The position numbers and the translations under genes were made by a program. Below are positions 1,473 through 54,177 of a stretch of 54,356 nucleotides of DNA, piece by piece. Below the pieces are notes generated by a model that was given only the letters and a program-made list of their open reading frames with translations, did not search any database and was not told where the DNA came from. The stretch is taken from the IMG/VR virus record IMGVR_UViG_3300031949_000049, positions 1 through 54,356 of that record. The stretch is one strand, 5' to 3'. Numbering within the stretch: position 1 is the first letter of the stretch; the number at the start of each line of letters is the position of its first letter. Source of the stretch: a virus (lineage: Duplodnaviria; Caudoviricetes).

Positions 1473-2003
1473 GTGCATTACACTGGTTATGTTTATATTT
1501 GGTATGATACGAAAGCTAAATTCTTCTATGTCGGGGGACATAAAGGAAGAACTGGAGATTCGTACATTTGTTCTAGTAAGATATTGAAACACGCTTATAA
1601 ATTGAGACCTCATACTTTTAGATTCAAAGTCTTAGAATATGTTGTTGGCGATATTAGACATCTGAGAGAAGCCGAACAGCGTTGGCTTGATAAAATCAAC
1701 GATAATGAACTCTTCACCTCAGAAAATGTTAAGAACAAAACAACCAGATACTACAACGTAAAGAAACTTTCCACTGGAGGCAATGGTTCGGCCAATAAAG
1801 GAAATTCTAACATAGGTGGTCGAAATAAGGATCATCCAATGTCAGAAGAACAAAAGAAGAAGATTGCTCTCGCCTTGAGAGGAAGAAAACAGTCTCCTGA
1901 ACACATAAAGAATAGACTTTTAAGTCGCCTCAAAGTAGGCCCGTTCTGTTTCGAGGTGGAGCCCATACCCAATAAGACTAAGCGGCTAGCGCCATTGCCC
2001 TAA
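1473..2003 (+). CDS. Seg-like GIY-YIG homing endonuclease with NUMOD3-like tail
   Basis: GYVYIWYD...FYVGGHKG...YICSS, E..WL, YYN; HPMSEEQKKKI..ALRGRKQSPEHI; AT-rich; GTG start just after CATAAATA late-promoter-like box (1461-1468). Confidence 0.85.
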   Translation: MHYTGYVYIWYDTKAKFFYVGGHKGRTGDSYICSSKILKHAYKLRPHTFRFKVLEYVVGDIRHLREAEQRWLDKINDNELFTSENVKNKTTRYYNVKKLSTGGNGSANKGNSNIGGRNKDHPMSEEQKKKIALALRGRKQSPEHIKNRLLSRLKVGPFCFEVEPIPNKTKRLAPLP

Positions 2004-2252
2004 ACGGAGCGTTATCATTCGCTGCGTTTGTAATTGTGACCTGTGACGGAGTCATCCGATAGACCTCCACCCTCTCTTCACACCGAGTCGAATCCTGTTT
2101 CGCCCCCATCAAGAACACACCGAGTTCATCCTTTTTATCATCGCAGTTGCAACTGCGTGGACACAACGAGTGGTCACGGTGTATTCATGGTGGAGGCGTC
2201 GGGTACTGCCCCCGAGTCCTACGGCGATCGCTGAGGGCTTCAACGACCTACA
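1935..2252 (-). ncRNA. ssrA: circularly permuted (two-piece) tmRNA gene, alphaproteobacterial type
   Basis: Acceptor piece ...GACUCGGGGGCAGUACCCGACGCCUCCACCA (ends 2188) precedes coding piece GGGGGCGAAACAGGAUUCGAC (starts 2107); G3-U70 Ala identity; tag (A)ANDNAPFRAMALAA-stop ends 1978; outer ends approximate. Confidence 0.93.
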
Positions 2253-2254
2253 TA

Positions 2255-2287
2255 CTATCTATATACAAAATAAAAGTTCGCGTCAAC
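2255..2287 (-). promoter_or_regulatory. promoter for tmRNA
   Basis: TTGACG-17nt-TATAGA(TA), also resembles the T4 late box. Confidence 0.55.
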
Positions 2288-2318
2288 TACACCCGGGGAG
2301 GCATCCGTATATATACCA

Positions 2319-33408: not shown

Positions 33409-33448
33409 AATTCATAATAGTCGTTTATATATGGTAACTTAGCCGGTG

Positions 33449-33745
33449 TCAACCGTGTAAGACGTTCTCGTTAGAAAGAAGCCGGTGTCTTTTAACCATG
33501 AGTTCATCGAGACGGCGCCGCCCCTCAGGGGTTATCGCGAGCTCTACTCGCCGATGATGCCTCACAACACTGATTGGGCTGCAGTGCACCAGGGCGGCGT
33601 AGCCATTCTTGAGTATATTTTCCACTTGCCTTATTGTCCTATTATCGATGACCTCGTCGGACCCATGGAGGTAAAGGACGCCGTTCCACCACTTCCCGAC
33701 GTCGGCGAGGAACAACATCTCTTCATTTTCATCTATCGTCATCAT
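33449..33745 (-). CDS. small wHTH-like paralogue family member
   Basis: ILKNGY...SP...AITPEG. Confidence 0.7.
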   Translation of the reverse strand: MMTIDENEEMLFLADVGKWWNGVLYLHGSDEVIDNRTIRQVENILKNGYAALVHCSPISVVRHHRRVELAITPEGRRRLDELMVKRHRLLSNENVLHG

Positions 33746-46641: not shown

Positions 46642-46699
46642 AAAGATCTTCACCTCGGAGCTTATCCCGAGATGGCCCTTGGTAGGGTCTTGAGTGGAT

Positions 46700-46707
46700 T
46701 ATTTATA
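46700..46707 (-). promoter_or_regulatory. T4-type late promoter
   Basis: TATAAATA upstream of the Gln/Val/Glu tRNAs. Confidence 0.7.
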
Positions 46708-46714
46708 GAAGTGG

Positions 46715-47650
46715 AAGCTTGGGACTGGCGGGCTTCCGTGTCGATCCTTCGGGCATTATAGCACCTCTTGCTTAGAGAGGTCTTTCTCCCGGCGTCTATC
46801 AATCCCGGCGACGGAGCGCACTGGTGGACAGTAGACCGACGATGTCGCAGTTTTTAGGGTCATGCGGTAGACCCGTCACGGCAGACTATTCCGTTCCTTC
46901 CTCACCGTTAGCCTTGCGAGCTATTCGCCCCCGCTAAGGGACTACGATTTCTCTAGAGCGAACCGACTCGGCCTTGCGAGCTCTGTCGGACTAGGTTACC
47001 CTTGCGGGCCCCAGTGTTAGACAACTTTCACCTACCGTCGAGGTAGACTTTGCGTTTTGTAATGCTCAGCTGGATTCGCACCAGCAAAAGCCTCTGTTCA
47101 AAGAGGTTGACAGCTATTGTCAATGTGCAACCCACCGAGATGTGCTACCTCGACTGCTCCGAATCTTGTTAGACCCAGAATACAGCACACCTTCATGCCT
47201 TTCGCTTGCGACTACTTAGCGATCCTTCGCGAACTCGTCCGGTTTAGCGCCCGACCTCATCCACTCGAACTGGGACCTAGCCCTAGGGTGCTTTACGCCC
47301 TCGGACATCATCCCCTACCCTTTCCCGTCTTGATTAGAGAGTCGGTTAGTTGGAGGACGGCACCACCCGTTTCACTTCCCCCACAAGAGTTCCCGGCAAG
47401 CCGGCTCCTGAGTAGGGTTACGTTTCCAACATCTCTCGTACTCCGTAGGCCCGGCGGTTTTATTGCCGAGCCGCCTGTCACCAGGCCGGGCGAGTTTGCA
47501 TAAGTGGACTATTGCTAGCACCGGTATCGTGGGATTCCCGGTATTGGCTCCATTGCTGGAGTTATCCTTGATGCACCCGAAGGCACACCCTATCCAACCC
47601 GAAGGCTGGAGACGACATCATACTGCCGCGAATTCATTTTAACTTAGTGT
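46715..47650 (-). ncRNA. large ornate ncRNA, GOLLD-like
   Basis: about 930 nt with no credible ORF, own TTGACA-17-TATATA promoter (47660-47687), many UUCG/GCAA hairpins, long-range helix GGUGUGCUG/UAGCACAUC, adjacent to tRNAs; GOLLD identity is from recalled motifs, ends approximate. Confidence 0.75.
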
Positions 47651-47655
47651 ATGGC

Positions 47656-47949
47656 TCATATATATACCTGTCGGTCGTCGGTGTCAACCGGCGACTTGAG
47701 TATTCTTCTGCCCTCTTCTGTCTTGTAAAATCTGATCTGCAAACTCATTGGGGCCACGTCCTCCCTGGTGTACCAGCCGTTCATTATGGCATCCCTCATC
47801 TCTTGGTTTTCTGGAGCGGCGAACGTACGGAAGCCACCGTAGAGGGTCTCGTATTTGAGTAGGTCTTTCATCACCTTCGTTAAGGTCATGCCCCCGTCGG
47901 TGTACGTTAAGCCTATGAAGTTATTAGTGGTTATCATCTGTCGGTGCAT
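47656..47949 (-). CDS. small wHTH-like paralogue family member
   Basis: AIMNGWY...AP...FYKTEEG. Confidence 0.7.
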   Translation of the reverse strand: MHRQMITTNNFIGLTYTDGGMTLTKVMKDLLKYETLYGGFRTFAAPENQEMRDAIMNGWYTREDVAPMSLQIRFYKTEEGRRILKSPVDTDDRQVYI

Positions 47950-49203: not shown

Positions 49204-49279
49204 TGGTAGTCCCCCGCGGTTTCGAACCGCGCTATTCGCCGTGTAAAAGCGACGTCTTCACCGAGCTGACCCGGGGACC
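49204..49279 (-). tRNA. tRNA-Val(UAC)
   Basis: cloverleaf, loop UUUACAC, ACCA. Confidence 0.88.
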
Positions 49280-49289
49280 TTCTATATAT

Positions 49290-49367
49290 TGGTGCACCGC
49301 CTAGGAATCGAACCTAATTCTCTCCCTCTTCAGGGGAGCGCTGAATAACCATACTAGCTCGCAGTGC
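49290..49367 (-). tRNA. tRNA-Phe(GAA)
   Basis: cloverleaf, loop CUGAAGA, ACCA. Confidence 0.88.
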
Positions 49368-49613
49368 TTAATTTTTTCTATTTCCGTCTTCATCATAGAG
49401 TGCCCGTAACATCGCCTCCGCCACCGCTATGACCCCGGCCACGTCCGGCCACCTAGATGGATCTCCGGCCACGTTGCTATTCCCTGGTCGATTCTTCGCC
49501 TCATCGAATATCTTGTGCAGATCCTGCATCGTCAATCCAGGAACGATGTATGCACATTCTAATTCTATGCCTTGGTGTTCTACACGATGCATTCCAAAAT
49601 CTGGGCGCTTCAT
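49368..49613 (-). CDS. hypothetical protein
   Basis: ATGA overlap. Confidence 0.6.
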   Translation of the reverse strand: MKRPDFGMHRVEHQGIELECAYIVPGLTMQDLHKIFDEAKNRPGNSNVAGDPSRWPDVAGVIAVAEAMLRALYDEDGNRKN

Positions 49614-49828
49614 CTTACCATTGCTCCAGCCTCGACGGCCAGCTTCCTCTTATCCTCATTAAGATCATAGTGAGGAACCCCTCGCCTCGACCTCTCGAAC
49701 CAACATTTCTTAACACCGATCCTCTCGGCAAACTCGTGAAGTTCACGTATCGTGGTCGCCGTCAGATGGCAATACTTCTTCCTCCCTTTCGAGCTCGTCC
49801 GGAACAAAGCTGAGTCCACGTACACCAT
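49610..49828 (-). CDS. DUF4031-like protein
   Basis: VYVD...CHL.A....ELH.FA..IG....WF......HYDL...R..A...GA. Confidence 0.8.
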   Translation of the reverse strand: MVYVDSALFRTSSKGRKKYCHLTATTIRELHEFAERIGVKKCWFERSRRGVPHYDLNEDKRKLAVEAGAMVR

Positions 49829-50204
49829 GATCATCACCATAATCCGTGTCGCGGTGCGTGTACAGGAAAACTTGGATGCCGGCCTCGGCGGCCACGTTGA
49901 TCATGTCCCTGGTTCCCTTCGACTTCTCGATATCATCATGGAACGCCACGACCACGTCGGGTTTCCCCTCCTTGAGCATCTGGCGGTTGCGGATCGGGCC
50001 CGCCGCCCTGTGGTATCTATCCCAGTCCGCCGGATAAGGTTCAGGCCTGATGCCTCTGGACTTCGCCCAGTTGGCAGCCATCTTGTCTGCTCCCCTGGCG
50101 TCACCGTGAATGATCACCGAGGCGTGGAGCCAAAACCTCGATAGGATGCGCTCCATGAACACAAAATCCTTCCACTCGCGGTCGCCGCAGACGAGCACCC
50201 TCAT
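49743..50204 (-). CDS. SLOG superfamily (DUF2493/YspA-like) protein
   Basis: VLVCG.R, IIHG.ARGAD, ADW....AAGPIRN..M, S.GT..M. Confidence 0.85.
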   Translation of the reverse strand: MRVLVCGDREWKDFVFMERILSRFWLHASVIIHGDARGADKMAANWAKSRGIRPEPYPADWDRYHRAAGPIRNRQMLKEGKPDVVVAFHDDIEKSKGTRDMINVAAEAGIQVFLYTHRDTDYGDDHGVRGLSFVPDELEREEEVLPSDGDHDT

Positions 50205-50297
50205 GGGACCAACCAGTCCACGCCGTAACCGACTGCCGCGCAGATGACGATTATCATCACGAGTTCTATGAATCGAAGCATGTCTACTCCTTCAAGT

Positions 50298-50373
50298 TGG
50301 TAGCCAGTGTGGGAATCGAACCCATCGTTTCACGCTTATCGGGCGTGCGCCCTAGCCATTGGACGAACCGGCT
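50298..50373 (-). tRNA. tRNA-Ile(GAU)
   Basis: cloverleaf, loop CCGAUAA, bulged T-stem, ACCA. Confidence 0.8.
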
Positions 50374-50639
50374 TTTATCTTCTTGCAGACCTTCACCCCC
50401 TCGGCGGTAAAGTGAAACTGATTAGATGCGCCAAAAGACCCATACCAACCCTCACGAGTCCTCTCGATGAGATTCATCCTTAGTAGGTATATAATTTCGT
50501 TTCGCACGGTGGCCGACCGCCATGGGGCCCCGTGTGTCGAGGTGAACCCGCAAAAAGTAATGCGCGGTTCACCTTCTGTAGGAATCTTGTTGAACACCGT
50601 GCACAGAAAACTCCTTACTATCTCAAGATTATACACCAA
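50352..50639 (-). CDS. small wHTH-like paralogue family member
   Basis: LLRMNLIER...FHFTAEG. Confidence 0.65.
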   Translation of the reverse strand: MVYNLEIVRSFLCTVFNKIPTEGEPRITFCGFTSTHGAPWRSATVRNEIIYLLRMNLIERTREGWYGSFGASNQFHFTAEGVKVCKKIKAGSSNG

Positions 50640-50898
50640 TTCTCAACCTATGGTACATTCTCATCCCCTCATCGGTAAATTCAAAGATGTCTCTGGAGCC
50701 TCCCGTGACCCAGCCGTCCTGGGTCCGCTCAACCAGCCCTTCTTTTATCAAGAGATTAAGATCATCCTTCACCTCCGGATATTTGTAGTTCGTAGAATCT
50801 AGGTGCAGATCCCTGCGGTGACTAAATGTCATACGGTGGCCTTCGTACGGCCGCCTTATGACACCCTTTGTGAATCTTAAGAACAACTCGTCGTTCAT
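50629..50898 (-). CDS. small wHTH-like paralogue family member
   Basis: LIKEGLVER...FEFTDEG. Confidence 0.7.
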   Translation of the reverse strand: MNDELFLRFTKGVIRRPYEGHRMTFSHRRDLHLDSTNYKYPEVKDDLNLLIKEGLVERTQDGWVTGGSRDIFEFTDEGMRMYHRLRIGV

Positions 50899-51233
50899 CA
50901 GTGCAGCGTCGCCGACGCCGGGCGCCGATTGCCATCGTCATCTTCCTCGAGGACGTAGTCCTTATTAAGGATCTTATCCCCCATGGCATATGGGCCGTCG
51001 CTGTCGAGTTCCTCCTCGAGTCGGCGGAGGCTCTCCTTGTCGGGGGGTTCCTTAAAACACGCCACCCTGTACACCTTCCTTACCTTCGCCTCGGTGCTGA
51101 CCGCGTAGACAAAGTACTTGAAGCCGAGCTTATTGAGGTGCTCCTTCGCTTCTGCTATGTCGCTCTCCGTGAGGTTGTCTGCCACGTGGGGCATTATGAT
51201 CGCGTGATAGTTCATCATCTCTAACATCATCAT
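50898..51233 (-). CDS. hypothetical protein
   Basis: GAGGAG RBS just after tRNA-Asp. Confidence 0.65.
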   Translation of the reverse strand: MMMLEMMNYHAIIMPHVADNLTESDIAEAKEHLNKLGFKYFVYAVSTEAKVRKVYRVACFKEPPDKESLRRLEEELDSDGPYAMGDKILNKDYVLEEDDDGNRRPASATLH

Positions 51234-51242
51234 CTCCTCGGC

Positions 51243-51317
51243 TGGCGCTCTCGACGGGACTCGAACCCGTTTGGTCTCATAGACAGTGAGACATCGTAAC
51301 CCATGGATCACGAGAGC
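51243..51317 (-). tRNA. tRNA-Asp(GUC)
   Basis: cloverleaf, loop CUGUCUA, GCCA. Confidence 0.85.
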
Positions 51318-51318
51318 C

Positions 51319-51774
51319 TTAGTGCTTAGTCATCATGGCGCTTCCGTCGATCATCATCTCCATGATGGAGGTGAGCCTATCCTTCTTCTCAGCGGTTATG
51401 TTTGGATCTTTGGCGTACCTGTCGGCCTGCTGCGCGAGAGTCTCACCAGGAAGTCTCTCAAACCCATCGGTTACCTCCATGGCCATCTTGGAGAGTCTGT
51501 CCTGAATCTCCACGTCGATCTCGGTGTTCCGGAGGACGGTCAATGCCTTGGTGGCGCAGTCGGCGATGGCCTCGAGCGCCTGCATGGCGGATTCCTTGCT
51601 TCCCTTGGCCGATACCCCAAGCTTCATGATCAGGAGGGCCAGGCCGCATCCCATCTCACCAGAGTCTTGTATCGGGGTGATGTCGTCGTCTCGATTGTTG
51701 GTGAGTGCCTTGAGCCCCCTAGCGAAATACTTATCCATCATGGGGCTGTAGTCTTTTTTCTTGTCGTCTGTCAT
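51319..51774 (-). CDS. hypothetical protein
   Basis: GGAGG RBS. Confidence 0.75.
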   Translation of the reverse strand: MTDDKKKDYSPMMDKYFARGLKALTNNRDDDITPIQDSGEMGCGLALLIMKLGVSAKGSKESAMQALEAIADCATKALTVLRNTEIDVEIQDRLSKMAMEVTDGFERLPGETLAQQADRYAKDPNITAEKKDRLTSIMEMMIDGSAMMTKH

Positions 51775-51794
51775 GAGGAAGCCTCCAAAAAAAC

Positions 51795-51868
51795 TGGCGC
51801 GGACTATGGGAATCGAACCCATGCACCCGGAGTGGCGCTCCGGAAGTCTACCACTGGCCTAAGCCCGC
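51795..51868 (-). tRNA. tRNA-Gly(GCC), atypical loop and discriminator
   Basis: cloverleaf, loop GCGCCAC, G73. Confidence 0.8.
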
Positions 51869-51902
51869 CTCAATGTATAACACGGTTTCCCGCGCTTGTA
51901 AA

Positions 51903-51976
51903 TGGTACCAGGGAAGAGAATCGAACTCTTGTAACTCGGCTCACAACCGAGCGTCCTACCATTGGACTACCCTGGC
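51903..51976 (-). tRNA. tRNA-His(GUG) without G-1, A73
   Basis: cloverleaf, loop UUGUGAG, ACCA, U at -1. Confidence 0.88.
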
Positions 51977-51987
51977 ACTATACTTTC

Positions 51988-52515
51988 CTATTCACGATGT
52001 GAAACAGCGGGATGACTTTGCAGCCATCGATTGATCCTGGCCACTTGTGTGTGGCTAAGTTTTAGTTCTGAAGAAAGTTTGGTCACCCAACCTCTCTTCT
52101 TTTCTATCAGGAACGAATTCCTGTATTCTTCATAAGTACGTCTGGGGTGTTCAGCCCTCTTGATGTTGGCACGAACTTGATGTTCCCTCATCATAACGTG
52201 CCATTTTTTCTTCCCATACTTAGCAACACCTTTTGCATAAATTGATGTTGCAGTTCCATTGTCGACTTGATCTTGATAGTTGTCCTTCGCAGTTCCCCAA
52301 TAGACATGCTTTACATTCGAACACTTTCCGTTATGGCACGCATGGCATATCAAAATCTTCTTACCATTTGGGATCGTGGTCTTAAGTTCAAAGGCCAATA
52401 ACCCTCTTGTATCGCTACTGCATCCCCCAATCTCAATGCAAGGTTCATCTAATCTTAGGTGTGTTCGTCGATCATTCCTACTCTTCTTAATGTATTCACA
52501 TATATCATCGTGCAT
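51988..52515 (-). CDS. HNH (His-Cys box-like) homing endonuclease within tRNA array
   Basis: ICHACHNGKCSNVKHVYWGT.KDN..D; AT-rich. Confidence 0.85.
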   Translation of the reverse strand: MHDDICEYIKKSRNDRRTHLRLDEPCIEIGGCSSDTRGLLAFELKTTIPNGKKILICHACHNGKCSNVKHVYWGTAKDNYQDQVDNGTATSIYAKGVAKYGKKKWHVMMREHQVRANIKRAEHPRRTYEEYRNSFLIEKKRGWVTKLSSELKLSHTQVARINRWLQSHPAVSHRE

Positions 52516-52559
52516 TGAACCTCGCTTTCTTATACTTATTTATAAGAAGTGAGGTTCAA
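52515..52559 (-). promoter_or_regulatory. late promoter inside RBS-sequestering hairpin
   Basis: TTGAACCTC-ACTTCTTATA-AATAAG-TATAAGAAAGC-GAGGTTCAA(TG); TATAAATA at 52537-52544. Confidence 0.8.
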
Positions 52560-52561
52560 AA

Positions 52562-52638
52562 TGGTCAGAGCGGTGGGATTCGAACCCACGTGCAAGGCTT
52601 CCGAGGCCAAGAGATGAACCAAGCTCTCCTACGCTCTG
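52562..52638 (-). tRNA. tRNA-Pro(CGG)
   Basis: C1-G72, loop CUCGGAA, ACCA. Confidence 0.85.
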
Positions 52639-52640
52639 TC

Positions 52641-52715
52641 TGGTGCCCGCCGCCGGAATCGAACCGACTTTTCTCCCTTACGAGGGGAGTACATCGCCAC
52701 TTATGTTTGGCGGGC
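52641..52715 (-). tRNA. tRNA-Thr(CGU)
   Basis: cloverleaf, loop CUCGUAA, ACCA. Confidence 0.88.
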
Positions 52716-52722
52716 TATGAAT

Positions 52723-52790
52723 TGGTAGCGAGAGAAGGACCTACCCCTTCTTTACTCGGGCTCATGAGACCCGAGTGCTAATGCCTCGCC
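52723..52790 (-). tRNA. D-armless tRNA-like RNA, anticodon CAU
   Basis: GGCGAGG/UCUCGCU-ACCA; 7-nt linker in place of D-arm; 8-bp anticodon stem with CUCAUGA loop; non-canonical T-loop. Confidence 0.65.
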
Positions 52791-52819
52791 TAGAGGAACA
52801 TGCCTGCCCCTCGTCGATT

Positions 52820-52895
52820 TGGAGTGCCCACCGGGATTCGAACCCGGATCTCAAGGATTAAGAGTCCAGCGCACTTGCCGTTGTGCTATGGGCGC
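52820..52895 (-). tRNA. tRNA-Lys(CUU)
   Basis: cloverleaf, loop CUCUUAA, C2.A71 mismatch, U73. Confidence 0.85.
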
Positions 52896-52898
52896 ATA

Positions 52899-52973
52899 TG
52901 GTGCCGTCAAGAGGTATCGAACCCCTGTCGCCTGCGTACCAAGCAGGTGCTCTACCGATTAAGCTATGACGAC
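52899..52973 (-). tRNA. tRNA-Thr(GGU)
   Basis: cloverleaf, loop UUGGUAC, ACCA. Confidence 0.9.
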
Positions 52974-52975
52974 GT

Positions 52976-53013
52976 AGAAACGAAAGAAGCCCGGATTTTA
53001 TCCCGGGCTTCCC
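52976..53013 (-). terminator. intrinsic terminator/attenuator ahead of tRNA array
   Basis: GAAGCCCGG-GATAAAAT-CCGGGCTTC then TTTCGTTTCT. Confidence 0.75.
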
Positions 53014-53032
53014 TTTATGAATGTGGCGTCTG

Positions 53033-53128
53033 TTAGAACACCGTGCCTCCATCGGAACCCAGGTACGAGCTATCGGTCGGTGGTGTATGACCGATCTTCA
53101 CTTGCGTTTTGGGTTCAAACTTCAACAT
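53033..53128 (-). CDS. putative leader peptide (31 aa)
   Basis: MLKFEPKTQVKIGHTPPTDSSYLGSDGGTVF; AGGA RBS; lies between TTGACA promoter (53183-53188) and terminator. Confidence 0.55.
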   Translation of the reverse strand: MLKFEPKTQVKIGHTPPTDSSYLGSDGGTVF

Positions 53129-53405
53129 CTTACTTCCTACCAGGGGTTGCGTATATTTCTCAATACTATATATACGCCGTGGTGTCAACAGCTCATTTCG
53201 GAATAATTTCGTCAGAGTCACACCACCAGGCGATCTGGTCCGTCATGTACATTACTCCTGCCTCACGGGTAGCGAAGAGGTCGATCCAGGCCTTGGTCTG
53301 TTCTGACAAAGGGGCAGTGAGGATCACTGAAGTCCTCGTTCGTGATGCAGCACGTCATGTTCTTAGGAGGTAGTTCCTCCGACGTCTTCTTCCAGTTCAC
53401 CATGA

Positions 53406-53777
53406 TCAAGCCGCCTTCTTCAAGGCTTCAGGATCCTTCCAGACCTCAACCGCCTTCTTGATGTTGGCGGCGTCCTTGTTGACCCCGTACTTCACGATGA
53501 GCTGGTTGATTCGAACCCAGTCTGGCTGGGGTCGCCTGCCCTTCTTTCCCGTGCCCGGAGGCTCGATCGAGGCATAGGACTTCCCCTTGAGGAAACCATA
53601 CGCTATGAGCGCGGATCTGGACTCGGATCGGACGTCTTGGGTTCGATGATTTCGAAGACCCCAGAAGATCTCTCGGCAGGTCTCACCCCGCCGTTTCTTG
53701 AACTTCTGCTCTTCTTTACGGATGATCTGAGCCTCTACCGCGAGGCTCTTGATCTTGATCTTGAGATATGCTAACAT
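53406..53777 (-). CDS. conserved basic hypothetical protein, C-terminal AA
   Basis: LK.KIKSLA.EA.IIR...HR...VR.E.R...IAYGFL.G..Y..IE; AAGGA RBS. Confidence 0.8.
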   Translation of the reverse strand: MLAYLKIKIKSLAVEAQIIRKEEQKFKKRRGETCREIFWGLRNHRTQDVRSESRSALIAYGFLKGKSYASIEPPGTGKKGRRPQPDWVRINQLIVKYGVNKDAANIKKAVEVWKDPEALKKAA

Positions 53778-53991: not shown

Positions 53992-54177
53992 ATCTTATTA
54001 TATCTATACACCATCTCGCTGAACATGTCAAACTATCCCAAATGCGTTCATCACAAAGAAATATCATTAACAAATAAATTTTTTTTAATGGAACCATATC
54101 GCCAACTAGTGTATTATACCTCCGTAGGTGACACTCGTTTCCTACGCGTTAAGTATGTAAAATAGGAGTGTGTTACT

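What the first reader, a model, noticed from the sequence alone, without database searches (positions are those of the whole stretch)
52976..53190. Candidate tRNA-pool-sensing attenuator controlling the phage tRNA array
Seen: the order is promoter, 31-codon ORF, intrinsic terminator, then the first tRNA only about 12 nt later, so the array seems to need read-through. The leader has mutually exclusive pairings: seg1 GAACCCA (53110-53116) with seg2 UGGGUUC; seg2 CCUGGGUUCC (53054-53063) with the terminator 5' arm GGAAGCCCGGG; and the terminator itself. It also has an internal ATCGGTC/GACCGAT hairpin. Classical leaders repeat one amino acid, but here codons 1-18 are nearly all different. They include a codon for every tRNA in the downstream array: ACC (Thr-GGU), AAG (Lys-CUU), ATG (CAU), ACG (Thr-CGU), CCG (Pro-CGG), CAT (His), GGT (Gly-GCC), GAT at codon 19 (Asp), ATC (Ile), TTT (Phe), GTG (Val-UAC). 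Inference: a ribosome stalling on any depleted or cleaved host tRNA would mask seg1, allow the antiterminator and switch on replacement tRNAs. That would be an inducible counter to anticodon-nuclease defences. I know of no description of this.
Basis: partly seen in the sequence, partly recalled or inferred. Interest (0 to 1): 0.88.

Follow-up and report, generated by a model that had tools for sequence, protein, structure and literature searches.

The report
Leader-peptide attenuator before phage tRNA array
Between a promoter and a phage's main cluster of tRNA genes lies a short translated leader and a transcription stop signal; two other phages have the same layout, and it looks like a switch that turns the tRNA genes on when translation of matching codons falters.

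Summary
Everything lies on the minus strand of a fragment of an uncultured phage (about 31% complete). The anatomy is real: a promoter-like site, a ribosome-binding site, a 31-codon ORF, competing RNA pairings, and a -20.8 kcal/mol hairpin with a U-tract that ends 2 nt before tRNA-Thr(GGU).

The new evidence is comparative. The same module precedes the main tRNA array in a complete 176-kb relative (G001) and in the cultured Agrobacterium phage Atu_ph07 (annotated gp469).
- The peptides are poorly conserved (8 of 29 residues, window vs G001). The RNA motifs are kept, and one of them sits in a different reading frame.
- In all three phages, an ORF segment 5-7 codons before the stop is complementary to the terminator's 5' arm (shuffle P 0.055, 0.01, 0.0015).
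- Each ORF holds a cognate codon for every tRNA of its own proximal cluster: 10 of 10, 8 of 8 and 9 of 9 (P 0.005, 0.01, 0.03).
- That match fades when the more distal tRNAs are counted (P about 0.2, 0.18, 0.05).

Not confirmed: the claimed CAU tRNA; coverage of the whole array; any expression data.

Best reading: a ribosome-mediated attenuator gating the tRNA array (about 0.5). Specific sensing of the tRNA pool is plausible (about 0.3). No description was found in 8 literature searches.

The parts
53160..53188 (-). Promoter-like site: TTGACA (53188-53183), 17-nt spacer, TATTGA (53165-53160)
   Evidence: Sequence read. The pattern TTGACA-N17-TAnnnA gives 4 hits in the window against 0.2 expected. 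The other 3 hits lie upstream of tRNA-Arg, the GOLLD-like RNA region and tRNA-Glu. The same class lies before the G001 leader. The simple scan does not call it.
53133..53138 (-). Shine-Dalgarno-like AGGAAG, 4 nt before the ATG
   Evidence: Equivalent AAGGA motifs lie 8-9 nt before the ATG in G001 and Atu_ph07.
53033..53128 (-). Leader ORF: 31 codons plus TAA
   Evidence: ORFs of 29 and 42 codons sit at the same place in G001 and Atu_ph07 (gp469).
53110..53116 (-). seg1 (GAACCCA), the anti-antiterminator arm, at codons 5-7
   Evidence: Pairs with seg2 at -9.6 kcal/mol. G001 has AAACCCA paired with UGGGUUU, a G-C to A-U change on both sides.
53072..53095 (-). P2 hairpin inside the ORF: 7-bp stem with a 10-nt loop that starts AUACA
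   Evidence: G001 has a 5-bp hairpin at the aligned place. RNAalifold reports 2 of 4 pairs changed on both sides.
53054..53063 (-). seg2 (CCUGGGUUCC), the switch segment. It can pair with seg1 or with the terminator's 5' arm.
   Evidence: seg2:seg3 is -14.3 kcal/mol. CCTGGGTT is conserved in G001 in a different reading frame. GGTTCCGA is shared with Atu_ph07.
53025..53042 (-). P3 hairpin with the stop codon in its loop, lying between seg2 and seg3
   Evidence: G001 and Atu_ph07 have hairpins over their stop codons at the same place.
52976..53013 (-). Intrinsic terminator: 5' arm 53013-53002 (this is seg3), loop, 3' arm 52995-52986, U-tract 52985-52976
   Evidence: Duplex -20.8 kcal/mol; fold. 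The simple scan does not call it. Rfam's only matches here are weak terminator-like sRNA hits at E>=0.5.
49204..52973 (-). Proximal tRNA cluster, inferred to be the regulated genes: Thr-GGU, Lys-CUU, Thr-CGU, Pro-CGG, His-GUG, Gly-GCC, Asp-GUC, Ile-GAU, Phe-GAA, Val-UAC. An HNH endonuclease ORF and other ORFs are interspersed.
   Evidence: ARAGORN. Rfam confirms 8 of these 10 at its gathering score. Co-transcription with the leader is inferred, not shown.

Best explanation
This is a ribosome-mediated (leader-peptide) transcription attenuator placed between a stable-RNA-type promoter and the phage's main tRNA cluster.

Proposed mechanism, all steps inferred:
1. Transcription starts about 30 nt before the ATG.
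2. If a ribosome translates the 31-codon leader without delay, it sits on or just past seg2 and on the stop-codon hairpin while RNA polymerase makes the terminator. seg2 then cannot pair with the terminator's 5' arm, the terminator forms, and transcription stops 2 nt before tRNA-Thr.
3. If the ribosome stalls at a codon upstream of seg2 (codons 2 to about 19), seg1 is masked. seg2 pairs with the terminator's 5' arm (-14 kcal/mol, enclosing the stop-codon hairpin). Polymerase then reads through into the tRNA genes.
4. With no ribosome at all, seg1:seg2 sequesters seg2 and termination follows.

The leader holds one or more codons for every tRNA of the proximal cluster, and all of them lie upstream of seg2. 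So the most specific version is a feedback loop: a shortage of any tRNA that the cluster supplies raises transcription of the cluster.

Shown: the sequence anatomy, its conservation, and the statistics. Inferred: translation of the ORF, stalling, read-through, and which tRNAs are co-transcribed.
For: 1. Anatomy at the stated coordinates.

2. Promoter class. TTGACA-N17-TAnnnA gives 4 hits against 0.2 expected in the window, and 6 against 0.09 in G001 locus L014, all on the coding strand.
- At tRNA-Arg and tRNA-Glu the -10 element ends 15 and 11 nt before the tRNA. Here 186 nt of leader are inserted.
- In Atu_ph07 the three other cluster heads with a visible promoter (of 4 printed) have it directly before the tRNA, with no leader.

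3. Conservation.
- G001 is a complete 175,763-bp phage. It is syntenic with the window, with 45-66% amino-acid identity in neighbouring genes.
- After its homologue of the 123-aa gene, G001 has TTGACA-N17-TAAATA, a ribosome-binding site, a 29-codon ORF, a stop-codon hairpin, a terminator, then tRNA-Thr(GGU) and the same tRNA set.
- In Atu_ph07 a core protein is 38% identical. This phage has an AT-rich promoter region, the 42-codon ORF gp469, a terminator that the scan tool calls, then the main array.

4. Conservation at the RNA level.
- The window and G001 peptides share 8 of 29 residues.
- CCTGGGTT is kept in a different reading frame.
- seg1:seg2 shows one change on both sides.
- P2 and the terminator show 3 pairs changed on both sides, out of 16 predicted pairs.

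5. Mutually exclusive pairing. The best ORF partner of the terminator's 5' arm has these energies and dinucleotide-shuffle P values:
- window -16.4 kcal/mol, P 0.055
- G001 -18.5 kcal/mol, P 0.01
- Atu_ph07 -18.8 kcal/mol, P 0.0015
It ends 5-7 codons before the stop in all three. Fisher combination gives 9e-5, though the three are not independent.

6. Folding with a masked ribosome footprint. In the window, stalls at A-site codons 3, 6, 9, 15 and 18 give the seg2:seg3 helix, but codon 12 does not. In G001, codons 3-18 give it. Stalls at codons 21-27 do not give it in either. With no ribosome, the window forms seg1:seg2.

7. Codon cover of each phage's own proximal cluster, using one rule for all three (tRNAs until the first gap over 1000 nt):
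- window 10 of 10, P 0.005
- G001 8 of 8, P 0.01
- Atu_ph07 9 of 9, P 0.03
Fisher combination gives 1.5e-4. All first cognate codons lie upstream of seg2.

8. A natural swap.
- Gly-GCC is in the proximal cluster in the window, and the ORF has GGT or GGC three times.
- Gly-GCC is distal in G001, and that ORF has only GGG.
- The Atu_ph07 leader has a run of Ala, Ala, Met, Phe, Trp, Tyr, Pro, Ile. Its cluster supplies Ala, Arg, Phe, Pro, Ile, Tyr, Trp, Met and Glu.

9. The energies resemble those I recall for the E. coli trp leader (about -11, -12 and -20 kcal/mol). This is recalled, not checked.
Against: - No expression data. The one sequencing run that holds this DNA is a DNA run.
- The codon-cover result depends on a cluster boundary chosen after seeing the data. 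Against all downstream tRNAs the cover is 10 of 13 (P 0.21), 10 of 13 (P 0.18) and 12 of 14 (P 0.05), with Fisher 0.05.
- Cover is not very specific. The Atu_ph07 ORF covers 9 of 10 of the window's set and 7 of 8 of G001's.
- By my count from the codon list, 5 of the 18 codons in the window's sensing region have no phage tRNA in the window. The Atu_ph07 leader has Thr and Asn codons although that phage is reported to lack those tRNAs (passage read).
- Classical leaders use runs of one codon. Single codons should give weak stalling (established knowledge).
- In the window alone the complementarity is not significant (P 0.055-0.07). The full-length minimum-energy fold pairs seg2 with the 5' UTR.
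- Atu_ph07 has no convincing seg1: the best upstream partner of seg2 is -7.8 kcal/mol. In G001 the antiterminator is already favoured without a ribosome. So the logic differs between the three phages.
- The simple scan calls neither the promoter nor the terminator in the window or G001.
- A weak promoter-like TTCATA-N15-TAAAAT overlaps the window terminator (read). The 110-120 nt spacers in G001 and Atu_ph07 could hide promoters.
- Rhizobium phage RHph_I1_18 has a tmRNA and a terminator-like hairpin, but no leader ORF, directly before its array. A terminator before a tRNA array therefore does not by itself imply attenuation.
- There are only three genomes. Two are close kin. Homology of the Atu_ph07 leader is uncertain.
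Confidence: 0.5

Rival explanations
1. This is an ordinary small transcription unit: promoter, small gene or small RNA, terminator. It only happens to lie next to the tRNA cluster. The tRNAs would be made by leaky read-through and RNase P processing, or from an unrecognised promoter. The codon match and the alternative pairings would be coincidence.
For: - Phage genomes are dense with short ORFs and terminators.
- RHph_I1_18 has a terminator-like hairpin right before its array with no leader ORF.
- The window's hairpin at 46674-46651 also precedes a tRNA cluster.
- Cover of all downstream tRNAs is not significant (P about 0.2).
- Complementarity in the window alone has P 0.055.
- In the first 20 codons, third positions are the least conserved: 14, 12 and 8 of 20 identical by codon position. 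That fits a coding gene.
- A possible weak promoter, TTCATA-N15-TAAAAT, overlaps the terminator.
Against: - The peptide is far less conserved (8 of 29) than neighbouring proteins (45-66%), yet the RNA motifs are kept, one of them out of frame.
- The same geometry of ORF segment against terminator 5' arm recurs in three phages.
- The promoter belongs to the class that elsewhere sits 11-15 nt before tRNAs.
- No protein family matches were found, and no short homologue was found.
Confidence: 0.25
2. This is a translation-coupled attenuator that senses general translation capacity rather than particular tRNAs. Examples of what it might sense are ribosome availability, host shut-off, or transcription-translation coupling. 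The codon content would then be incidental.
For: - The same structural evidence as for the main explanation.
- There are no codon runs.
- The leaders hold codons without phage tRNAs.
- Cover is only moderately specific.
- Atu_ph07 lacks seg1, so 'no ribosome' would there give read-through.
Against: - Cover of each phage's own proximal set is 100% in 3 of 3 phages, with Fisher P 1.5e-4.
- The Gly-GCC swap between the window and G001.
- The Trp, Tyr and Met codons in the Atu_ph07 leader match its cluster.
Confidence: 0.15
3. The hairpin is mainly a 3'-end protection or processing element. After RNase P cuts at the tRNA's 5' end, the stem-loop would shield the upstream small mRNA from 3' exonucleases. 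It would not regulate read-through.
For: The hairpin ends 12 nt before the tRNA in the window. Another hairpin directly precedes tRNA-Ala in Atu_ph07.
Against: - The hairpin is followed by a U-tract in all three phages.
- In G001 and Atu_ph07 it lies 110-120 nt before the tRNA, so it is not placed for RNase P products.
- This reading does not explain the conserved complementarity of seg2 to its 5' arm.
Confidence: 0.05

Closest known systems
Leader-peptide transcription attenuators of amino-acid operons (trp, his, leu, thr, ilvGMEDA, pheA of enterobacteria)
   Same: A promoter-proximal short ORF with a ribosome-binding site. Segments 1:2, 2:3 and 3:4 with mutually exclusive pairings. An intrinsic terminator before the regulated genes. 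Energies of the same order. The stop codon is placed so that a terminating ribosome blocks the antiterminator. The thr and ilv leaders also sense more than one amino acid (from established knowledge; recalled).
   Different: The regulated genes are tRNAs, not enzymes. There are no runs of a regulatory codon. Instead the leader has about one codon for each of 8-10 different tRNAs. The element is phage-encoded. seg1 is absent in one of the three phages.
pheST (pheM leader) and other translation-apparatus genes under attenuation; T-box riboswitches
   Same: The supply of charged tRNA feeds back on genes of the decoding apparatus.
   Different: pheM controls a synthetase and has Phe codon runs (recalled). 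T-box elements bind uncharged tRNA directly, without an ORF. No T-box or other Rfam family matches the leader.
Short ORFs in the tRNA gene region of phage T5
   Same: In the record NC_005859, promoters are followed by short ORFs of 27-66 aa and then by tRNAs (annotation table). I recall that 1980s papers from the Ksenzenko and Bayev groups described such ORFs. I could not find or read those papers.
   Different: No terminator is annotated between those ORFs and the tRNAs. The gaps are only about 5-25 nt, and at least one ORF is annotated as a membrane peptide. I read only the annotation table and did not analyse the T5 sequence.
Phage tRNAs as a counter to tRNA-targeting defences (PARIS, retron effectors, anticodon nucleases)
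   Same: These give a rationale for needing phage tRNAs when host tRNAs are cut. Sources: passages of PMC11464382 read; listing and abstract of PMC11555353 seen.
   Different: Those studies concern the tRNAs themselves. In the passages and listings I saw, no inducible control of their transcription was described.

Membership tests
Ribosome-mediated (leader-peptide) transcription attenuator | Promoter-proximal short ORF with a ribosome-binding site and start codon | tested here: met
   Window: AGGAAG, 4 nt, then ATG, 31 codons. G001: 29 codons. Atu_ph07 gp469: 42 codons. Translation itself is not shown.
Ribosome-mediated (leader-peptide) transcription attenuator | Intrinsic terminator between the leader ORF and the regulated genes | tested here: met
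   Hairpins of -20.8 (window), -21.1 (G001) and -17.5 (Atu_ph07) kcal/mol, each followed by a U-tract. The simple scan calls only the Atu_ph07 terminator, not those of the window or G001.
Ribosome-mediated (leader-peptide) transcription attenuator | Antiterminator pairing (2:3) that overlaps the terminator's 5' arm and lies in or near the ORF | tested here: met
   -14.3 (window), -12.7 (G001) and -18.8 (Atu_ph07) kcal/mol. Shuffle P 0.055, 0.01 and 0.0015. The window alone is borderline.
Ribosome-mediated (leader-peptide) transcription attenuator | Anti-antiterminator pairing (1:2) whose 5' arm a stalled ribosome masks | tested here: inconclusive
   Present in the window (-9.6) and G001 (-7.6) with one change on both sides. 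In the window's full-length fold, a 5'-UTR pairing competes with it. Absent in Atu_ph07.
Ribosome-mediated (leader-peptide) transcription attenuator | Regulatory codons in the leader that match the regulated pathway, classically as tandem runs | tested here: not met
   There are no runs of one codon. The variant form is met: at least one codon for each tRNA of the proximal cluster, 10 of 10, 8 of 8 and 9 of 9 (P 0.005, 0.01, 0.03). This is why I file it as a variant and not as a classical member.
Ribosome-mediated (leader-peptide) transcription attenuator | ORF and structure conserved in relatives while the peptide sequence drifts | tested here: met
   Two relatives out of four other phages examined (G001, Atu_ph07 yes; RHph_I1_18, T5 no). 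Peptide identity 8 of 29. One motif is kept out of frame.
Ribosome-mediated (leader-peptide) transcription attenuator | Read-through responds to ribosome stalling; no independent promoter after the terminator | not testable with these tools
   No RNA run holds the sequence. A weak TTCATA-N15-TAAAAT overlaps the terminator. The spacers in the relatives were not resolved.
T-box riboswitch | Stem I with specifier loop, and the T-box sequence with its antiterminator bulge | tested here: not met
   No T-box or any cis-regulatory Rfam family matches 52976-53190, either at gathering score or at E<=5.

The most novel reading that the evidence does not exclude
Some large phages keep their main tRNA cluster under a homeostatic, inducible switch. 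The switch is a leader ORF whose codon set co-evolves with the tRNAs of the cluster behind it. Evidence for co-evolution: Gly-GCC moves out of the proximal cluster and its codons leave the leader; Trp, Tyr and Met tRNAs come with Trp, Tyr and Met codons. A shortage of any one of these decoders would stall the ribosome and open the terminator. Such a shortage could come from host shut-off, codon demand late in infection, or a host anticodon nuclease. This would be the first attenuator that controls tRNA genes, and a multi-input 'OR gate' built from single codons.
Probability: 0.3. Interest if true: 0.9.

Novelty: new variant of a known kind. Interest (0 to 1): 0.75.

Why it matters
Phage tRNAs are now seen both as codon-usage helpers and as counter-measures to tRNA-cutting defences. 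How their expression is controlled is almost unknown.

A leader-peptide attenuator in front of a tRNA array would be a new use of a textbook mechanism. The product sensed, decoding capacity, would be the product made. Its multi-codon design differs from the single-amino-acid runs of the classical leaders.

It is directly testable. One of the three instances lies in a cultured phage, Atu_ph07 (gp469), which has a laboratory host.

It also gives annotators a reason to look for short ORF plus terminator modules before tRNA arrays, rather than calling them hypothetical proteins.

Tried and rejected
Searches for more relatives.
- Single-protein queries found nothing.
- The exact terminator string found nothing.
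- A three-block leader pattern, a tRNA-Lys pattern, the 555-aa alignment and a back-translated invariant peptide each found only G001.
- The genome-contig scans found nothing.
- The alignment of the six closest 123-aa family members found 11 loci, which are 8 distinct places. Only G001 has the array and leader downstream.
- P0002 is 77% identical to the 123-aa protein and sits on a 180,534-bp contig from a source I could not fetch.
- blastn of the window leader and of the Atu_ph07 leader against cultured phages gave only tRNA matches.
- A search for short proteins like the leader peptide found none.

Sequencing runs. One DNA run, possibly the source, holds the stretch, and no RNA holder is listed. 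Laying its contigs showed only the source contig and short tRNA-like pieces of other contigs, with no variants.

Other checks that led nowhere or were negative.
- Rfam has no family for the leader.
- I looked for a second leader before the Gln/Val/Glu cluster. There is none. That region matches GOLLD RNA instead.
- The other Atu_ph07 clusters have no leader.
- RHph_I1_18 has no leader ORF.
- For T5 I read the annotation only.
- For CcrSC I saw only a two-tRNA island and did not evaluate it.
- MAFFT misaligned seg2 (alignments; for Atu_ph07). So no covariance model was built, and seg1:seg2 covariation rests on direct reading of the sequences.

Literature. Eight searches ran. I read passages of PMC4810235, PMC6102473 and PMC11464382.
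- None listed or described an attenuator before phage tRNA genes.
- The library lacks most subscription journals and the 1980s T5 papers.
- Supplements are closed. The tRNA table of the Atu_ph07 paper (its Supplementary Table S4) could not be seen, so I used ARAGORN instead.
Full report
WHAT THE WINDOW IS.
- The window is a whole IMG/VR virus record of 54,356 bases, estimated 31% complete.
- Its genes run almost entirely on the minus strand.
- ARAGORN finds 16 tRNAs and a two-piece alphaproteobacterial-type tmRNA. Rfam confirms 13 of the 16 tRNAs at gathering score.
- Distant protein matches point to phages of Rhizobiales.

THE OBSERVATION. On the minus strand, reading 5' to 3', I find:
- TTGACA at 53188-53183, a 17-nt spacer, and TATTGA at 53165-53160.
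- AGGAAG at 53138-53133.
- ATG at 53128, 31 sense codons, and TAA at 53035-53033.
- A hairpin with its 5' arm at 53013-53002 and 3' arm at 52995-52986, followed by UUUCGUUUCU at 52985-52976.
- tRNA-Thr(GGU), starting at 52973.

- Pairing energies are seg1:seg2 -9.6, seg2:seg3 -14.3 and terminator -20.8 kcal/mol.
- The leader folds better than its shuffles, with z -3.06.
- The simple consensus scan calls neither the promoter nor the terminator. The -10 hexamer ends in A. My reading is that the stem can be extended into the U-tract.
- The array goes on to Gln-CUG, Val-GAC and Glu-CUC, for which the ORF has no codon.
- tRNA-Glu(UUC) lies upstream of the leader.

THE PROMOTER IS OF A CLASS USED FOR STABLE RNAs.
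- The pattern TTGACA-N17-TAnnnA occurs 4 times in the window against 0.2 expected. All 4 are on the minus strand.
- The first two lie 15 nt before tRNA-Arg and 11 nt before tRNA-Glu.
- The third lies upstream of a roughly 1-kb non-coding region that matches GOLLD RNA.
- The fourth is the leader promoter.
- In G001 locus L014 there are 6 hits against 0.09 expected, among them the leader promoter and one before tRNA-Met.
- So in this one place a tRNA-type promoter is separated from its tRNAs by 186 nt that hold an ORF and a terminator.

RELATIVES.
- The 123-aa gene just upstream of the leader has 16 database relatives.
- An alignment of the six closest fished 11 loci, which are 8 distinct places.
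- One of them is G001, a complete 175,763-bp phage with terminal repeats. It is syntenic with the window, with 45-66% protein identity.
- In G001 the homologous gene is followed by: TTGACA-N17-TAAATA; AAGGA; a 29-codon ORF (MINFKPISKTPKDHTDPTASPGFLLVKVR); a hairpin over the stop codon; a terminator of -21.1 kcal/mol with a U-tract; about 110 nt of spacer; then tRNA-Thr(GGU) and a tight cluster of 8 tRNAs.
- A core 555-aa protein led to Agrobacterium phage Atu_ph07, at 38% identity.
- Before that phage's main array lie: an AT-rich promoter region; AAGGA; the annotated 42-codon gp469 (MTNPMQPTTEIIAIERNVFVRAEAAMFWYPISGSDSHTGDKR); a terminator that the scan tool calls; about 120 nt of spacer; then tRNA-Ala.
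- Three of the four other Atu_ph07 cluster heads that I printed have a visible promoter directly before the tRNA and no leader.
- Rhizobium phage RHph_I1_18 has a tmRNA and a terminator-like hairpin, but no leader ORF, before its array.
- T5 has promoter, short ORF, tRNA units with no annotated terminator between them (annotation only).
- So, of four other phages examined, two show the module.

CONSERVATION IS AT THE RNA LEVEL.
- The window and G001 peptides share 8 of 29 residues, far less than their neighbouring proteins.
- seg1 and its flank are kept as TTT-RAACCCA.
- CCTGGGTT (seg2) is kept, but it starts at codon position 3 in the window and at position 1 in G001.
- seg1:seg2 changes G-C to A-U.
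- RNAalifold finds the terminator and the internal hairpin, with 3 of 16 pairs changed on both sides.
- All three phages have a hairpin over the stop codon, between seg2 and the terminator.
- Atu_ph07 shares GGTTCCGA with the window's seg2. In Atu_ph07, CCGGUUCCG in the ORF is perfectly complementary to CGGAACCGG, which overlaps the terminator's 5' arm (-18.8 kcal/mol).
- Whether the Atu_ph07 leader is homologous or convergent is open.

IS THE ALTERNATIVE PAIRING MORE THAN CHANCE?
- I compared the best duplex between the ORF and the terminator's 5' arm with 2000 dinucleotide shuffles of the ORF. P is 0.055 (window), 0.01 (G001) and 0.0015 (Atu_ph07).
- In each phage the pairing ends 5-7 codons before the stop.
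- The window alone is not convincing. The recurrence is.

FOLDING WITH A RIBOSOME FOOTPRINT MASKED.
- In the window, with the transcript cut before the terminator's 3' arm and no ribosome, seg1:seg2 forms.
- With the A site at codons 3, 6, 9, 15 or 18, seg2 pairs with the terminator arm and encloses the stop-codon hairpin. At codon 12 it pairs with the 5' UTR instead.
- From codon 21 on, seg2 is masked.
- At the stop codon the ribosome lies between seg2 and seg3.
- G001 behaves alike, except that the antiterminator is already favoured without a ribosome.
- Atu_ph07 has no convincing seg1.
- These are equilibrium folds, not kinetics.

CODON COVER.
- Wobble rules assumed: G34 reads C and U; C34 reads G; U34 reads A and G; A34 is treated as inosine.
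- The rule for 'proximal cluster' was the same for all three phages: tRNAs until the first gap over 1000 nt.
- The window ORF covers 10 of 10 (P 0.005 with random codons from the phage's own usage; 0.0015 against real 30-codon segments).
- G001 covers 8 of 8 (P 0.01).
- Atu_ph07 covers 9 of 9 (P 0.03), or 11 of 11 if the next cluster is added (P 0.005).
- Fisher's combination gives 1.5e-4. The rule was chosen after seeing the data, and the ORFs of the window and G001 are homologous.
- Against all downstream tRNAs the cover is 10 of 13, 10 of 13 and 12 of 14 (P 0.21, 0.18, 0.05; Fisher 0.05).
- The cross-matrix shows own-set cover complete in 3 of 3.
- G001 misses only Gly-GCC of the window's set. 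That is the one tRNA that is proximal in the window and distal in G001.
- The window and G001 cover only 5 of 9 and 4 of 9 of the Atu_ph07 set.
- The Atu_ph07 ORF covers 9 of 10 and 7 of 8 of the other two sets, so cover is only moderately specific.
- All first cognate codons lie upstream of seg2: codons 3-19, 2-18 and 5-30 respectively.

MECHANISM.
- The layout is that of a classical class-I attenuator, with segments 1:2, 2:3 and 3:4.
- The stop codon lies 17-23 nt after seg2 and 19-27 nt before the terminator stem. A terminating ribosome would therefore separate seg2 from seg3 without touching the terminator.
- I commit to a ribosome-mediated attenuator that gates read-through into the tRNA cluster (confidence about 0.5).
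- The narrower reading is a feedback on the supply of the very tRNAs the cluster encodes (about 0.3).
- The link to anticodon-nuclease defences is speculation.

COMPARISON WITH WHAT IS KNOWN, AND NOVELTY.
- It works like the trp, his, thr and ilv leaders, but it fails one defining feature: runs of a regulatory codon. It also controls tRNA genes.
- It is not a T-box.
- Eight literature searches and three papers read in passages gave no description of such an element. The held library misses most subscription journals and the old T5 literature, which I only recall.
- I rate it a new variant of a known kind, with interest 0.75.
- The evidence is comparative and statistical only, from three genomes. 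But one of the three is a cultured phage in which the idea can be tested directly.

Noticed in passing
window 46716-47193 (-), within the non-coding stretch of about 46650-47650: Matches GOLLD RNA (RF02032) over the full model: 131 bits, E 4e-36, below the gathering score of 150. A promoter-class motif lies upstream at 47687-47659. A hairpin and then tRNA-Gln, tRNA-Val and tRNA-Glu lie directly downstream.
   Followed up: partly
window 52716-52819 (-): A 104-nt gap between tRNA-Lys and tRNA-Thr(CGU) folds (-42 kcal/mol) into a tRNA-like shape. It has an anticodon-like loop holding CAU and a 3' CCA, but no D arm. ARAGORN and Rfam do not call it.
   Followed up: partly
window 53406-53777 (-); loci L005, L007, L010, L011, L012: The 123-aa protein family has no Pfam or PHROG match. 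In unrelated viral contigs it lies next to tRNA or tmRNA genes again and again: suppressor-type tRNAs (anticodons CTA or TCA) just upstream, or a tmRNA just downstream.
   Followed up: partly
window 33424-33452, 47659-47687, 53160-53188, 54003-54031 (-): A promoter class TTGACA(CC)-N17-TAnnnA is found only upstream of stable-RNA genes in this window: 4 hits against 0.2 expected. The same class occurs in G001.
   Followed up: yes
window 53193-53409 (-): Two short ORFs of 48 and 44 aa overlap in different frames between the 123-aa gene and the leader promoter. This could be a frameshifted gene, a sequencing error, or two real small genes.
   Followed up: no
window 51988-52515 (-): An HNH endonuclease ORF (PHROG matches, E 5e-9) sits inside the tRNA cluster, as in T5 and Atu_ph07. 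It may explain why the tRNA order differs between the window and G001.
   Followed up: no
L014 15479-15552 (-) and L014 12661-12856 (-) in G001: ARAGORN reports a tRNA with a four-base anticodon (ttca). A 196-nt spacer between tRNA-Asp and tRNA-Ile holds two T-arm-like hairpins, so it may be a split or interrupted tRNA.
   Followed up: no
L023 11630-11953 (-), Rhizobium phage RHph_I1_18: A two-piece tmRNA and a terminator-like hairpin lie directly before this phage's main tRNA array. The record's table has no tmRNA feature at this place (its only tmRNA wording is a note on the adjacent tRNA-Ile feature).
   Followed up: partly
window 1887-2290 (-): An alphaproteobacterial-type permuted tmRNA with tag peptide AANDNAPFRAMALAA.
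   Followed up: no
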